This document shows, piece after piece, positions 60,072 through 63,027 of a stretch of 64,000 nucleotides of DNA (the stretch's first letter is position 1; each line of letters opens with the position of its first letter). The translations under genes and the position numbers were made by a program. The notes beneath the pieces were generated by a model. The model searched no databases. It was given only the letters and a program-made list of their open reading frames with translations, and was not told where the DNA came from. Origin of the DNA: a virus (lineage: Duplodnaviria > Caudoviricetes); the IMG/VR virus record IMGVR_UViG_3300025608_000722, positions 15,933 through 79,932 of that record. One strand, written 5' to 3'.

Positions 60072-61844
60072 ATGATCCGCATAAAAGATTTAACAGTAAA
60101 GAACTTCATGAGCGTGGGCAATCAAACCCAGGCGATTGATTTTAGCAAAGAAAAGTTAACATTAGTTCTTGGTGAAAACTTAGATCAAGGTGGAGACGAT
60201 GCTGGTAGTAGAAACGGAACCGGAAAAACTACTATCATTAATGCTCTTTCATATGCATTGTATGGAACTGCATTAACTAATATTAAACGCAATAACCTTA
60301 TTAATAAAACAAATAGTAAAGGTATGGTTGTATCTTTAGACTTTGAAAAAGATGGTACAACTTATAAAATTGAAAGAGGACGCTCACCTACATTTTTAAA
60401 ATTTTATATTAATAATCAGGAACAAGAAGTATCCGACGAGTCACAAGGTGATTCACGTAAGACTCAAGAGTTTATTAATGATATGCTTGGCATGTCGCAC
60501 GACATGTTTAAACATATTGTTGCACTTAATACCTACTCAGAACCGTTTCTAGCAATGCGGACAAATGATCAACGTGCAATCATTGAGCAATTGTTAGGTA
60601 TTACTATTTTGTCAGAAAAAGCAGATGCCCTTAAAGAGCAAGTTCGACAAACTAAAGAAGCAATTACACAAGAGACTCTTAAAATCGAAGCAATCCAGAC
60701 TGCAAATGAAAAAATTAGTTCAACAATTGAAAGTCTAAAAAGTACTCAACGTGCTTGGCTTGCTAAAAAAGAACAAGACTGTACAAGATTACAACAAGGT
60801 ATTACAGAATTAGAACATTTAGATGTAGAGTCTGAACTAGAAGCGCATGAAAAACTAGCTAATTGGACTGAACATAACAACGCCATTTTGGCTCTTAAAA
60901 AAGAATTAAGCACACTGGAGCCGGCACTACAACGTGCAGACAAGGCTGTTGAAAAGGCTGTTAAAGATATCGCAGAATTAGAAGATGCAGTGTGTTATAC
61001 ATGTGGTCAGGAGCTACATGAAGATAAAAAAGCAGAAATTGCAGAGCGTAAAACAAAAGAATTTGATGATGCAAACTCTTATCAAAACGAAATTGCAAAC
61101 AAACTTGCCGATGTATTAAAGGCGCTTGATAATATCGGTGACATCAATGGTAAGCCTACAACATTCTATGAAAGTGCTAAAGAGGCATACGACCATAGAC
61201 AAAACGTTGATAGTTTGAAGCAAACACTTGCTAACAAACAACAAGAAATCGATCCGTATCAGACACAAATTGATGAACTAAGCAATAGTGCTATACAACA
61301 GATTGATTGGAGTGCAGTTAATGATCTTACAAGTTACAAAGAACATCAAGAGTTTTTGTTAAAACTGCTTACAAACAAAGACAGTTTTATTCGCAAGAAA
61401 ATTATTGAACAAAATCTAGCATATCTTAATAACAGACTTACATATTATCTTGATCGCTTAGGATTGCCGCACCAAGTTGTATTCCAAAACGATTTGAATG
61501 TTGAGATTACACAGCTAGGACAAGATCTAGACTTTGATAACTTATCACGTGGTGAGCGCAACAGACTTATCTTGGGTATGAGTTTTGCATTCCGCGATGT
61601 TTGGGAAAGTTTATATCAGAATATCAACTTGTTGTTCATTGACGAGTTGATTGATAGTGGTATGGACACTGCTGGTGTTGAAGGATCACTTGCTGTTCTT
61701 AAAAAGATTGCACGAGAACGCGAAAAGAATATTTTCTTAATTTCGCATAAAGATGAACTAGTAGGAAGAGTGAACACTATTCTTAAAGTTGTAAAAGAGA
61801 ACGGATTTACAAGTTACGAGAATGATGTTGAAGTAGTAGAATGA
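60072..61844 (+). CDS. gp46: Recombination endonuclease ATPase subunit (Rad50/SbcC-like)
   Basis: NGTGKT Walker A, CYTC Zn hook, LSRGE signature, LLFIDE Walker B, ISH. Confidence 0.92.
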   Translation: MIRIKDLTVKNFMSVGNQTQAIDFSKEKLTLVLGENLDQGGDDAGSRNGTGKTTIINALSYALYGTALTNIKRNNLINKTNSKGMVVSLDFEKDGTTYKIERGRSPTFLKFYINNQEQEVSDESQGDSRKTQEFINDMLGMSHDMFKHIVALNTYSEPFLAMRTNDQRAIIEQLLGITILSEKADALKEQVRQTKEAITQETLKIEAIQTANEKISSTIESLKSTQRAWLAKKEQDCTRLQQGITELEHLDVESELEAHEKLANWTEHNNAILALKKELSTLEPALQRADKAVEKAVKDIAELEDAVCYTCGQELHEDKKAEIAERKTKEFDDANSYQNEIANKLADVLKALDNIGDINGKPTTFYESAKEAYDHRQNVDSLKQTLANKQQEIDPYQTQIDELSNSAIQQIDWSAVNDLTSYKEHQEFLLKLLTNKDSFIRKKIIEQNLAYLNNRLTYYLDRLGLPHQVVFQNDLNVEITQLGQDLDFDNLSRGERNRLILGMSFAFRDVWESLYQNINLLFIDELIDSGMDTAGVEGSLAVLKKIAREREKNIFLISHKDELVGRVNTILKVVKENGFTSYENDVEVVE

Positions 61845-62041
61845 ATGACGACACTCACGATTTATTAACTAAAGCCTATATGGCGTATTTTAAAGCAAAC
61901 GAAAAGTTTGAAGCTAGAAACTCTACACGAACACATCGAGAAAGTAGAAAATGGCTAAGAGAAATACGTACTTTAGCAAAATTACGGATGGACGAAATAC
62001 ACGAAAAACATCAAACCAAAAATGAAGGCAAAGACGAATAG
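61841..62041 (+). CDS. Small helical protein, Hc1/histone-H1-like family (putative)
   Basis: 66 aa. EKFEARNSTRTHRESRKWLREIRTLAKLRMDEI resembles the EKF..GNKAAG.R.RK.L.EI...A...R.EI pattern. Confidence 0.5.
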   Translation: MNDDTHDLLTKAYMAYFKANEKFEARNSTRTHRESRKWLREIRTLAKLRMDEIHEKHQTKNEGKDE

Positions 62042-62059
62042 GCACACATATATAAGTTC

Positions 62060-62509
62060 ATGCAGTGGACTTATCAAGGAAAAACAATTGACGAAATACC
62101 AGACGAATATGAAGGCTTTGTTTACCTTATTACCAACACCACTACAGGCCAAAAATACATAGGCAAAAAACTAGCCAAATTTAAAACTACTAAGCCACCA
62201 CTCAAAGGCAAGAAGAATAAGAGACGCGGCACTAAGGAAAGCGATTGGCGTGATTACTGGGGTTCTAGTGATAGACTCAATGCAGATGTAGCCGCACTAG
62301 GCGAAGATAAGTTTACAAGAGAAATATTATACCTATGTAAAGGTAGAGGCGAAATGTCCTATATAGAGGCAAGAGAGCAATTTGACCGCCGTGTATTAGA
62401 GAGCGACGAGTATTACAATGGAATTATTAATGTTAGAGTTGGCGGTTCCGATAAATTGCGACAGGCATTGTTAGAGCATCAAATTAAGGCAAAACAATCC
62501 AACACTTAA
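62060..62509 (+). CDS. Small GIY-YIG family nuclease-like protein
   Basis: GFVYLITN...KYIGKK, DYWGSS, conserved Glu (YIEARE) and YYN. Confidence 0.8.
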   Translation: MQWTYQGKTIDEIPDEYEGFVYLITNTTTGQKYIGKKLAKFKTTKPPLKGKKNKRRGTKESDWRDYWGSSDRLNADVAALGEDKFTREILYLCKGRGEMSYIEAREQFDRRVLESDEYYNGIINVRVGGSDKLRQALLEHQIKAKQSNT

Positions 62510-62940
62510 GGTTGGCGGGCCAGTTTGCAAATACCGCTGTGGAAAAAGCTCTCGTATAGAAGCACACGTACATATTGATCGACGCACCAGAGTGCGGAAG
62601 CCATCAGACAAATTGGGCTACTGGTTGATATAGATAGATTGTTGGCTGTCGAAAAACTGCACATTACACATAAAAACCGTATGCATAGGAACGAAGCAAC
62701 GGGTATTATACGGTGTAGCGTATATTTTAAGAATATACGGTATAGCGTATAAGATGTCGACGTAGGTTGGGAAAGGTCAGAGCCCATTGTGTAGCAGATA
62801 AACACCTACTTCCAAGTCTCGGCTGTGACGAACTCACATGAAGTTTTGAGATTAGATGGAACCGTAACAGGTTCCGTCTGACTGAAACAATCTACATGAA
62901 GCAATTACATTATTGCTATCGCAATAATGCTTTAATTCAT
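62499..62940 (+). ncRNA. Candidate large structured non-coding RNA or structured cis-element; strand inferred from the upstream gene
   Basis: About 43% GC by hand count over 62521-62880, in a non-coding gap. More than 10 hand-found helices, including a 12-bp stem (62852-62863/62870-62881) and a 9-bp stem (62908-62916/62921-62929). Confidence 0.6.
62706..62752. repeat. Two tandem 18-bp quasi-palindromic units
   Basis: TATACG-GTGTAG-CGTATA (62707-62724) and TATACG-GTATAG-CGTATA (62734-62751). Confidence 0.85.
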
Positions 62941-62995
62941 ATCTATTACTTCTATCAACAAACGAAGTGTTATAGTTTGAGCGTTAGCGAAAACT

Positions 62996-63015
62996 AAATG
63001 AGCGTTAGCTCATTT
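62996..63015 (-). terminator. Probable intrinsic terminator for the convergent minus-strand genes, possibly bidirectional
   Basis: AAATGAGC-4 nt-GCTCATTT stem; on the minus strand the stem is followed by TTTAGTTTT. Confidence 0.5.
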
Positions 63016-63027
63016 CAATCATATAGA

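What the first reader, a model, noticed from the sequence alone, without database searches (positions are those of the whole stretch)
62060..62940. Small GIY-YIG nuclease gene whose stop codon sits inside a ~440-nt densely structured element: candidate nuclease-RNA system
Seen: the only large non-coding gap in the window (62510-63027) is GC-enriched (about 43% by hand count) and packed with helices. CCAAC/GTTGG (62499-62503/62511-62515) has the GIY-YIG TAA in its loop. Other helices: GCGG/CCGC (62515-18/62534-37); CGCAC/GTGCG (62583-87/62592-96); ATTGATC/GGTTGAT (62574-80/62623-29); a long-range ACGTACAT/ATGT(CG)ACGT (62566-73/62754-63); GTAGGT/ACCTAC (62762-67/62804-09); TGTGA/TCACA (62824-28/62834-38); a 12-bp stem at 62852-62881; and a long bulged hairpin at 62896-62940. 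Several helices use G-U pairs, which suits RNA. Established: TnpB reRNA overlaps the 3' end of its nuclease ORF, HEARO RNAs accompany HNH nucleases, and group I introns embed GIY-YIG ORFs. Inference: this 149-aa protein has only a catalytic domain and no obvious DNA-recognition domain, so it may work with this RNA as an RNP, guide scaffold or ribozyme. A structured replication origin is the alternative. I do not recognise it as a named Rfam family.
Basis: partly seen in the sequence, partly recalled or inferred. Interest (0 to 1): 0.85.

Follow-up and report, generated by a model that had tools for sequence, protein, structure and literature searches.

The report
Twin-box phage RNA beside homing nuclease
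The gene-free stretch behind a small DNA-cutting enzyme gene of this uncultured marine T4-like phage is a real gene for a large, knotted non-coding RNA of about 520 bases that shows the same short word twice; the RNA and the enzyme each occur without the other elsewhere, and what the RNA does is still unknown.

Summary
The structured element is real. About 62490-63015 (+ strand) is conserved in more than 250 IMG/VR contigs. It has no conserved ORF. On 18 diverse sequences 93.7% of cells pair (31-39% when partners are slid) and 23 of 61 pairs show compensatory changes.

- The stop codon does not sit in a local hairpin loop. CCAACA (62499-62504) pairs long-range with UGUUGG (62640-62645), inside the loop of another hairpin.
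- The RNA runs on to about 63015.

The nuclease-RNA partnership is not supported:
- The same RNA sits in podophage-like and other tailed-phage contigs, and a structurally similar RNA sits in Polynucleobacter chromosomes, all without any GIY-YIG gene.
- The 149-aa nuclease family (Pfam SegE_GIY-YIG, phrog_447) sits in five cultured phage genomes that lack the RNA.
- Against this, every T4-like locus with the RNA has the nuclease directly upstream.

The RNA carries two boxes, ACUCA-CAUGAAG and AUCUA-CAUGAAG. Their word exists in 12 versions across relatives, and the two copies almost always match. I found no complementary partner in cis.

No Rfam family hits. The closest known relative is the orphan Polynucleobacter-1 motif (RF01718), and that link rests on shared architecture only.

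Earlier agents of this scan found this family many times on other DNA. Function is unknown.

The parts
62060..62509 (+). 149-aa free-standing GIY-YIG nuclease gene (Seg-like, phrog_447). Its last codons (TCC AAC ACT TAA) contain the 5' strand of the RNA's closing helix.
   Evidence: Pfam SegE_GIY-YIG E 7.4e-36, residues 3-123. phrog_447 E 1e-39 plus homing-endonuclease phrogs. 808 phage records hold homologues.
62490..63015 (+). Whole non-coding RNA gene, about 520 nt. Both ends are inferred from conservation, not mapped.
   Evidence: Conserved at about 75-80% nt in 80 of 80 loci up to about 62995-63015. No conserved ORF. Covariation.
62482..62492 (+). Conserved (T)AGGCAA motif about 10-20 nt upstream of the closing helix; possible promoter element or 5' leader (inference).
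   Evidence: Seen by eye in T4-like and podophage-like relatives, whatever ORF lies upstream.
62499..62504 (+). Pa 5' strand, CCAACA. It pairs with 62640-62645 to form pseudoknot 1.
   Evidence: 97% of cells paired, 4 of 6 pairs compensatory.
62514..62538 (+). Hairpin Hx (GGCGG/CCGCT).
   Evidence: Invariant in T4-like members; replaced by GTCC...GGAC in the podophage type.
62539..62567 (+). Hairpin Hb (GTG...CAC enclosing GCTCTC-GTATA-GAAGC), preceded by the conserved GGAAAAA junction.
   Evidence: 62540-62566 UA 85/AU 19; 62548-62563; 62549-62562.
62573..62630 (+). Long variable hairpin Hc.
   Evidence: 62573-62630 UA 65/CG 38; 62574-62629 AU 63/GC 38.
62633..62650 (+). Hairpin Hp (GATAG/CTGTC). 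Its loop holds the Pa 3' strand, TGTTGG 62640-62645.
   Evidence: UA/UG/CG/AU types.
62664..62670 (+). Hd 5' strand. It pairs with 62788-62794 over 120 nt.
   Evidence: 62666-62792 GC 67/AU 36; 62667-62791 UA 69/CG 35; 62668-62790 AU 89/UA 15.
62677..62702 (+). Hairpin He, with the near-invariant loop AGGAACGAAGC (62687-62697).
   Evidence: 62678-62701 UA 58/CG 42; 62679-62700 CG 77/GC 24.
62706..62752 (+). Optional hairpin Hv, made of two copies of TATACGGTNTAGCGTATA.
   Evidence: Present in some relatives, replaced or absent in others. Repeats.
62753..62787 (+). Ultra-conserved core GATGTCGACGTAGGTTGGGAAAGGTCAGAGCCCATTG. GTAGGT (62762-67) pairs with ACCTAC (62804-09), crossing Hd, to form pseudoknot 2.
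   Evidence: Invariant blocks. GTAGGT/ACCTAC 100% paired with 2 compensatory pairs. GCAGGT/ACCTGT and ACAGGT/ACCTGT variants.
62832..62843 (+). Box 1: prefix ACTCA plus word CATGAAG.
62854..62879 (+). Hairpin H12 (AGATGGAACC/GGTTCCGTCT), followed by invariant GACTGAAAC.
   Evidence: 99% of cells paired, with U-G to C-G and A-U to G-U changes. Kept in unseeded relatives.
62890..62901 (+). Box 2: prefix ATCTA plus word CATGAAG.
62899..62933 (+). Bulged hairpin. Its base uses the last bases of box 2. It is terminator-like in some relatives.
62973..63013 (+). 3' module: TAGTTT-GAGCGTTAGCGA-AAACTA (62973-62996), then terminal hairpin ATGAGC-GTTA-GCTCAT (62998-63013), which may serve as terminator for both strands.
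   Evidence: Conserved in relatives and by eye in the Polynucleobacter copies. Terminator scan.

Best explanation
This is an independent gene for a non-coding RNA of about 520 nt with several pseudoknots. It is a marine branch of a widespread family carried by mobile elements, which earlier agents of this scan called 'twin-box RNA'. Its 5' third resembles the orphan Polynucleobacter-1 motif in architecture.

The RNA is made from the + strand. It starts in or just before the last codons of the GIY-YIG gene and ends at the hairpins at 62933-63013.

The GIY-YIG gene is a free-standing, Seg-like homing-type nuclease gene lodged at the 5' edge of this highly conserved RNA gene. It acts on DNA on its own and travels with the RNA as one cassette between T4-like phages. 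It is not an RNA-guided enzyme.

The RNA folds into two parts:
- a 5' domain in which three hairpins are closed by a pseudoknotted helix;
- a 3' domain in which an invariant core (GUAGGUUGGGAAAGGUCAGAGCCC) is knotted to flanking strands.

The 3' domain presents the same word of 6-7 nt twice, each time after a fixed prefix (ACUCA, AUCUA) and before a hairpin. I infer that these two words dock two copies, or two sites, of one outside partner. That partner is most likely a nucleic acid read by base pairing, so the RNA would act as a scaffold or decoy with a programmable address.

Shown here: the RNA, its fold, its independence from the nuclease, and the twin-word rule. Inferred: the transcript ends, the homing role of the nuclease, and everything about the partner.
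For: RNA and fold:
- Conservation without an ORF.
- 93.7% of cells paired against 31-39% for slid partners; 23 of 61 pairs compensatory; 0 of 500 shuffles reach this.
- G-U pairs on the + strand.
- My 3'-domain model R1 hits the window once (62631-62901, 218 bits) and hits unseeded relatives at 107-186 bits.

Independence from the nuclease:
- RNA without GIY-YIG in L253/L261, between the tail adaptor Gp77 and TerL.
- RNA without GIY-YIG in L301/L317, behind a tail protein.
- A look-alike RNA without GIY-YIG in Polynucleobacter loci.
- GIY-YIG without RNA in five whole cultured phage genomes.
- An 81-aa ORF between the two in L227.

Mobile cassette: nucleotide identity to the window averages 74% for gp46, 81% for GIY-YIG and 78% for the RNA, and these correlate weakly (r 0.39 and 0.20). 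The phages closest by gp46 are not closest in the cassette.

Twin words:
- The first 6 letters are identical in 205 of 211 loci.
- 12 word versions: CATGAA, CATGAT, CATGAG, CATAAT, CATAAA, CGTGAA, TATGAA, CAGAAA, ACTGAA, AATCAA, GCGAAA, GAGAAA.
- All 17 true RNA loci picked for CGTGAA in box 2 also have it in box 1, in several RNA backgrounds.
- Two copies in one Polynucleobacter genome carry GCGAAAG twice and GAGAAAG twice.
- No complementary stretch in cis.
Against: - In every T4-like locus with the RNA the nuclease gene is directly upstream, or one ORF away, on the same strand. It is intact and well conserved. A purely selfish homing gene should be patchy.
- The ORF and the RNA overlap, so they may be one transcript.
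- No expression data could be obtained, so the transcript and its ends are unproven.
- The outside partner is hypothetical. Nothing complementary was enriched in the window. A protein reader or a role at the DNA level would also fit identical words.
- The nuclease lacks a recognisable DNA-binding domain, so its homing activity is unproven.
Confidence: 0.6

Rival explanations
1. Nuclease-RNA system. The minimal GIY-YIG protein, which lacks a DNA-binding domain, binds this RNA. The RNA supplies target recognition or regulation, perhaps with the twin words as guides.
For: - Strict adjacency on one strand in all T4-like loci with the RNA, across gp46 identity 42-91%.
- The stop codon lies within the RNA's 5' helix region.
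- Nuclease and RNA move together as a cassette.
- Weinberg et al. 2010 noted that most Polynucleobacter-1 RNAs lie downstream of one gene family, GOS11034 (PMC2864571 supplement). I did not test whether that family is this nuclease.
- The protein is only a catalytic domain.
Against: - The RNA occurs without any GIY-YIG gene in podophage-like and other phage contigs, and a look-alike occurs in Polynucleobacter chromosomes.
- Homologues 47-70% identical sit in five cultured phages with no such RNA anywhere in the genome.
- Another ORF separates the two in L227/L267.
- The twin words match nothing in the flanks.
Confidence: 0.12
2. A ribozyme or self-processing RNA, group-I-like or of a new class, in which the two identical words mark two equivalent reaction sites, for example excision or circularisation of the roughly 58-nt segment between them.
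For: - Invariant unpaired or junction stretches and nested pseudoknots are typical of catalytic cores.
- The Hd/GTAGGT-ACCTAC arrangement recalls the P3/P7 knot in topology.
- GIY-YIG genes often accompany group I introns (general knowledge).
Against: - No Rfam ribozyme or intron family hits, even at E<=10.
- No interrupted host gene or exons: gp46 is complete, and the next genes are on the other strand or start with their own ribosome-binding site.
- About 20 nt and a mini-hairpin lie where P7 and P3 should abut, and there is no P8.
- No internal guide complementary to the words.
Confidence: 0.1
3. An element acting at the DNA level, or as DNA plus transcript: a structured or RNA-primed replication origin, or a packaging or recombination site, with the twin words as identical core sites.
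For: - Identical short direct repeats are typical of recombination cores and iterons.
- In small phages the element lies between the tail and terminase modules.
- Earlier scan agents proposed an origin (e1-5804443).
Against: - Compensatory changes with many G-U pairs on one strand show selection on a folded single strand.
- Its position differs between phage types.
- Look-alike copies sit sporadically in Polynucleobacter chromosomes, sometimes twice.
- No AT-rich unwinding region is conserved next to it.
Confidence: 0.07
4. A long structured 3' UTR that only stabilises or terminates the gp47-gp46-nuclease transcript.
For: - It lies at the end of a + strand gene block before convergent genes.
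- Hairpins with weak U-tracts at 62908-62929 and 62998-63013.
Against: - About 500 nt of invariant junctions, pseudoknots and the twin-word rule is far more than a terminator needs.
- The same RNA follows unrelated genes in other phages, and a look-alike stands alone between opposite-strand genes in Polynucleobacter.
Confidence: 0.05

Closest known systems
Polynucleobacter-1 RNA motif (Rfam RF01718; Weinberg et al. 2010, Genome Biol 11:R31, PMC2864571)
   Same: - Orphan structured RNA from Polynucleobacter and aquatic metagenomes, reported as mostly downstream of one phage-like gene family.
- In 12 of 13 genome loci RF01718 (70-104 bits) lies about 250 nt upstream, on the same strand, of a 3' part with the same layout as here: GAACUCA + word, hairpin, GAAUCUA + the same word, then a stem-GAGCG..GCGAA-stem module and a terminal hairpin.
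- The 5' part has the same order of elements (UAAAG/UAAGG, hairpin, UGGAAA junction, hairpin).
   Different: - RF01718 does not hit this window or any marine relative, even at E<=10.
- My marine 3'-domain model does not hit the Polynucleobacter loci, and nhmmer finds nothing.
- The link therefore rests on shared architecture only.
- The catalogued motif covers only the first 141 nt. The twin-box part is not described in the paper.
Free-standing GIY-YIG homing endonuclease genes of T4-type phages (Seg family, e.g. SegE, and SegB in the T4 tRNA gene cluster)
   Same: - GIY-YIG catalytic domain of the SegE type.
- A small stand-alone gene wedged between conserved genes, in different places in different phages.
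- It sits beside a highly conserved RNA gene, as SegB sits among tRNA genes (general knowledge).
- The cassette's ancestry is uncoupled from its neighbour gp46.
   Different: - Only 149 aa, with no C-terminal DNA-binding domain. The family profile phrog_447 is itself only 148 positions.
- Present in every T4-like locus that has the RNA, rather than patchily.
- Cleavage activity is untested.
Large ornate non-coding RNAs of phages and bacteria (GOLLD RF01998, ROOL RF03087, HEARO/IscB omega-RNA)
   Same: - Several hundred nt long, with many helices and pseudoknots and invariant junctions.
- Carried by phages and mobile DNA; no known function when first found.
   Different: - No Rfam match to any of them.
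- Not near tRNA genes here.
- No IscB or TnpB gene.
- The twin identical words have no counterpart that I know of in those families.

Membership tests
Polynucleobacter-1 RNA (RF01718) | Match to the Rfam covariance model at or above its 37-bit gathering score | tested here: not met
   No hit in the window at gathering score or at E<=10, even with only 181 nt searched. None in 25 related marine or freshwater loci.
Polynucleobacter-1 RNA (RF01718) | True RF01718 loci continue into a 3' domain with the same layout as this RNA (ACUCA-word, hairpin, AUCUA-same word, GAGCG..GCGAA module) | tested here: met
   Published alignment flanks. 12 of 13 genome loci have RF01718 plus twin boxes. A second copy in one genome carries another word.
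Polynucleobacter-1 RNA (RF01718) | Reciprocal detection: a model of this RNA's 3' domain finds the RF01718 loci | tested here: not met
   R1 with filters off gives only chance-level hits (E 0.2 or worse) and none at the right place. nhmmer gives none.
Polynucleobacter-1 RNA (RF01718) | Lies downstream of genes of family GOS11034 (possible homology to PSSM2_218) | not tested
   Stated in the paper's supplement. I did not check whether GOS11034 is this GIY-YIG family.
Group I intron | Match to Rfam group I intron models; interrupts a gene, with exons on both sides | tested here: not met
   No hit at E<=10. gp46 and the nuclease ORF are complete, and no + strand exon follows.
Group I intron | P3-P7 pseudoknot with P4-P6 and P8 and a guanosine-binding site | tested here: inconclusive
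   Hd with GTAGGT/ACCTAC forms a P3/P7-like knot. However, about 20 nt lie between the strands that should abut, there is no P8, and no G-site can be named.
RNA-guided nuclease RNAs (TnpB reRNA, IscB omega-RNA/HEARO) | RuvC-type TnpB or IscB nuclease gene overlapped by the RNA; RNA and nuclease always together; guide at the element's edge | tested here: not met
   The nuclease is GIY-YIG. No HEARO hit. RNA and nuclease occur apart. The words match no flank.
Seg-type free-standing GIY-YIG homing endonuclease | SegE-type GIY-YIG catalytic domain in a stand-alone gene found at different genome sites | tested here: met
   Pfam PF19835 E 7.4e-36. Five different contexts in cultured phages.
Seg-type free-standing GIY-YIG homing endonuclease | C-terminal DNA-binding domain and patchy presence among close relatives | tested here: not met
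   149 aa, with the domain covering residues 3-123 and no further Pfam hit. Present in all T4-like loci that hold the RNA.
Seg-type free-standing GIY-YIG homing endonuclease | Site-specific DNA cleavage that drives its own spread | not testable with these tools
   Only indirect evidence: the cassette's ancestry is uncoupled from gp46.

The most novel reading that the evidence does not exclude
The RNA is a programmable reader. Its knotted core holds two identical 6-7-nt address words side by side to capture two copies or two sites of one nucleic-acid partner. The partner could be two anticodon loops: read from the word's second letter, every version is a triplet followed by an invariant A, as in T-box specifiers. 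It could instead be both arms of a DNA or RNA target. That would make this a new class of address-carrying RNA machine on mobile elements. In T4-like phages the adjacent GIY-YIG nuclease might act on whatever it captures.
Probability: 0.12. Interest if true: 0.9.

Novelty: new variant of a known kind. Interest (0 to 1): 0.6.

Why it matters
Large, intricately folded RNAs with no known job are rare. Past examples (IscB/TnpB RNAs, ROOL, GOLLD, OLE) led to new biology.

This family is abundant: hundreds of contigs from uncultured marine and freshwater phages, and a look-alike sits patchily in a cultivable bacterium, Polynucleobacter. Only the first third of that bacterial relative was ever catalogued, in 2010, and I found no follow-up paper in the library searched.

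The twin-word rule is a sharp, testable handle: two copies of a fast-changing word that stay identical, with no partner in cis. Whatever reads the word can be fished out.

For this window the practical result is a correction. The small nuclease is most likely a mobile neighbour of the RNA gene, not its protein partner.

Tried and rejected
I built only the 3' domain model R1.
- Link to RF01718 by models: RF01718 against the window and 25 relatives gave nothing. R1 against the Polynucleobacter loci gave nothing. nhmmer gave nothing. I found no intermediate that hits both.
- Box-to-box pairing through the CAUG palindrome: rejected. The G-to-A version (CAUAAA, CAUAAU) would give two C-A mismatches, yet both boxes carry it.
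- Partner in cis: no consistent complementary 4- to 6-mer within the RNA or within 1.5 kb on either side, with or without G-U pairs.
- Enrichment of the word or its complement in the window: none.
- Small basic ORF in front of the RNA in L227/L261 as a universal protein partner: absent from the window and from the other loci.
- Coding reading: no conserved ORF on either strand, and the 99-aa minus-strand ORF is not kept.
- tRNA or tmRNA: none found.
- GGUCAGA/UCUGACU as a third pseudoknot: invariant in the marine clade but not kept in L291/L301 by eye. I leave it open.
- Hammerhead-like reading of UGAG-stem-CGAAAC at 62976-62994: the CUGA half is missing, the flanks pair with each other, and there is no Rfam hit.
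Full report
**Context.** The window is part of a 79.9-kb IMG/VR record of an uncultured T4-like phage. Upstream on the + strand lie a gp47-like phosphoesterase, a gp46-like SbcC/Rad50 ATPase (590 aa) and a 66-aa ORF. Then comes the 149-aa ORF 62060-62509. That ORF is a SegE-type GIY-YIG domain (PF19835, E 7.4e-36, residues 3-123). It belongs to phrog_447, a family whose profile is itself only 148 positions long. Downstream genes are on the minus strand.

- ORFs: the only stretch of 200 nt or more in the window without an ORF of 60 aa or more is 62806-63027. The rest of the gap is covered only by a 99-aa minus-strand ORF that relatives do not keep.
- GC content: 40.5% for 62510-63027 and 42.1% for 62499-62940, against 34.9% for the window.
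- Folding: the + strand folds better than shuffles (z -3.6) and the minus strand less so (z -1.75).
- Rfam: nothing at gathering score or at E<=10. There are no tRNAs.

**Conservation.** A protein-seeded scan gave 80 IMG/VR loci with the same nuclease (89-95% identity). In all that extend far enough, the DNA after the stop codon is conserved at about 75-80%, as well as the coding neighbours, up to about 62995-63015. Synteny ends there. No ORF is conserved in it on either strand. Invariant blocks alternate with helices that change in a compensatory way.

**Structure.** Pairwise covariation was measured on 104 non-redundant sequences. A named structure was then counted on 18 diverse sequences, including podophage-type members. 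Result: 93.7% of cells form standard pairs, against 31-39% when the partners are slid. 23 of 61 pairs have compensatory changes, and 0 of 500 shuffles reach any measure.

The supported helices are:
- Pa, 62499-504/62640-645;
- Hx, 62514-18/62534-38;
- Hb, 62539-41/62565-67, with an inner stem;
- Hc, 62573-80/62623-30;
- Hp, 62633-37/62646-50, whose loop holds the Pa 3' strand, making a pseudoknot;
- Hd, 62664-70/62788-94;
- He, 62677-80/62699-702, with the loop AGGAACGAAGC;
- the optional hairpin Hv, 62706-52;
- GTAGGT/ACCTAC, 62762-67/62804-09, which crosses Hd and makes a second pseudoknot;
- the 10-bp hairpin 62854-63/62870-79.

Many pairs are G-U on the + strand, so the folded molecule is the + strand.

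- Most of the hairpins stand.
- The local CCAAC/GTTGG hairpin around the stop codon does not. Its 3' arm is GTTAG in many relatives, and the 5' arm covaries with 62640-645 instead.
- The proposed 62566-73/62754-63 helix has no support.
- The RNA continues past 62940. A small hairpin (62948-68), a stem-GAGCGTTAGCGA-stem module (62973-96) and a terminal hairpin (62998-63013) are conserved too.

**Twin boxes.** ACTCA-CATGAAG (62832-43) and ATCTA-CATGAAG (62890-901) each stand before a hairpin.
- Across 211 loci the first six letters of the two words are identical in 205. Three differ at letter 6, two at letters 6-7, and my pattern mis-set one.
- The word exists as CATGAA, CATGAT, CATGAG, CATAAT, CATAAA, CGTGAA, TATGAA, CAGAAA, ACTGAA and AATCAA in phages.
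- It exists as GCGAAA and GAGAAA in Polynucleobacter.
- A scan that selected loci only by CGTGAA in box 2 returned 17 true RNA loci in several sequence backgrounds. All 17 have CGTGAA in box 1.
- In the sequences that carry a variant word, no other conserved column changes with it.
- The boxes cannot pair with each other, because the G-to-A version would give two C-A mismatches.
- No complementary stretch exists in the RNA or within 1.5 kb. The word is not enriched in the window.
- Letter 5 is A in all twelve versions. The variable part is letters 1-4.

**Does the RNA belong to the nuclease?**

*Evidence for linkage.* In every locus found with the RNA's 22-nt core and enough upstream DNA, the nuclease lies directly 5' and gp46 further 5'. 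The same holds for more distant T4-like relatives, down to 42% gp46 identity.

*Evidence against linkage.*
- L253 and L261 are podophage-like: tail fibre, Gp77 adaptor, small ORFs, then the RNA, small ORFs and TerL. They have no GIY-YIG or gp46.
- L301/L317 carry the RNA behind a tail protein and also lack the nuclease.
- All of these match my 3'-domain model R1 at 107-155 bits. L301/L317 were not in its seed.
- In L227/L267 an 81-aa ORF separates the nuclease gene and the RNA.
- Conversely, the closest cultured homologues lie in five different gene neighbourhoods with at most 148 nt of spacer after them. These are Methylophilales phage Melnitz (70%), Synechococcus phages S-SRM01 and B23 (about 50%), Sinorhizobium phage phiM12 and Acidovorax phage ACP17.
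- R1 finds nothing anywhere in those five genomes. It scores 218 bits, once, in the window's own record.
- Nucleotide identity to the window averages 74% for gp46, 81% for the nuclease and 78% for the RNA, with weak correlation (r 0.39 and 0.20). The cassette's history is uncoupled from its neighbour.

I read this as a Seg-like mobile nuclease gene that has settled at the edge of a very conserved RNA gene and moves with it. Its constant presence in T4-like carriers is the one fact that keeps a functional tie possible.

**Relation to known families.** Earlier agents of this scan had named the family and pointed to Rfam RF01718. I tested this.
- RF01718 does not hit this window or 25 related loci.
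- The authors' own supplement says the motif is mostly downstream of one phage-like gene family and that its 3' half is not always detected.
- Their alignment flanks for Polynucleobacter show ACUCA-GCGAAAG and AUCUA-GCGAAAG downstream.
- A scan of one genome per species found 13 loci with that box-2 string. Twelve carry RF01718 (70-104 bits) about 250 nt upstream on the same strand. They have no GIY-YIG gene nearby.
- The order of elements in both domains matches the marine RNA by eye.
- Neither nhmmer nor R1 links the two sets.

I therefore file this RNA as a divergent relative by architecture, not as a demonstrated member.

RF01718 is present in only 9-10 of 81 sampled Polynucleobacter genomes, sometimes twice. 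It is accessory there. The neighbours in one genome are DUF genes on the other strand, not a clear prophage. One genome has two copies 18 kb apart with different words, each word repeated faithfully within its own RNA.

**Other families.** Group I intron, TnpB/IscB RNAs, GOLLD and ROOL all fail their tests (see the membership table). The only paper in the library that names Polynucleobacter-1 is the 2010 survey.

**Mechanism.**
- Shown: a folded + strand RNA with at least two pseudoknots, an invariant core, and two identical address-like words.
- Inferred: it is a scaffold or decoy that docks two copies or sites of one outside partner through these words.

The partner's specificity differs between close relatives and between two copies in one cell. 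This argues for an address rather than a fixed host site. I could not identify the partner and could not obtain expression data.

**Verdict.** The element is real and unusual. The nuclease-guide reading is unlikely (about 0.12). The family is largely uncatalogued but was found repeatedly by this scan. Function is unknown.

Noticed in passing
window 62706-62752; L002 3001-3047 (Caulobacter phage CcrBL9, MH588546.1 89284-89330): The optional hairpin Hv consists of two copies of the imperfect palindrome TATACGGTNTAGCGTATA. The same pair, plus a third perfect palindrome ATACGGAATTCCGTAT, sits at 87% identity in a spacer of the tRNA gene cluster of an unrelated giant Caulobacter phage. It could be a mobile hairpin or a shared protein-binding site.
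   Followed up: partly
window about 62526-62705 (loci L010-L013, L018, L021, L034, L043, L059, L064 and others): Many metagenome contigs end, and others begin, within the first 200 nt of the RNA. This probably reflects assembly breaks at the two alternative forms of hairpin Hc and at the optional Hv.
   Followed up: no
window 61841-62041: A 66-aa ORF between gp46 and the nuclease gene (MNDDTHDLLTKAYMAYFKANE...) is conserved in the same place in distant T4-like relatives (L207, L214, L248). It has no Pfam or PHROG match.
   Followed up: partly
L227 8064-8306; L261 2548-2673: A small basic ORF with the shared motif TPAQxEAWxTKATKI...NYxxxTG ends about 10 nt before the RNA, in one T4-like lineage and one podophage-like lineage. 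It is absent from the window.
   Followed up: partly
L177 12765-12835: A related viral contig carries a freshwater-2 RNA (RF02980, 52.1 bits) about 10 kb from its twin-box RNA.
   Followed up: no
G001:C1 401229-401366 and 419563-419698 (L319, L320): One Polynucleobacter chromosome holds two copies of the RF01718-type RNA 18 kb apart, on the same strand. Their twin words are GCGAAAG and GAGAAAG. The genes in between are mostly DUF families.
   Followed up: partly
window 62978-62988 and 62999-63009: Exact 11-nt direct repeat TGAGCGTTAGC. One copy lies in the stem-GAGCG..GCGA-stem module and the other forms the terminal hairpin. The same pairing of modules is seen in the Polynucleobacter copies.
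   Followed up: no
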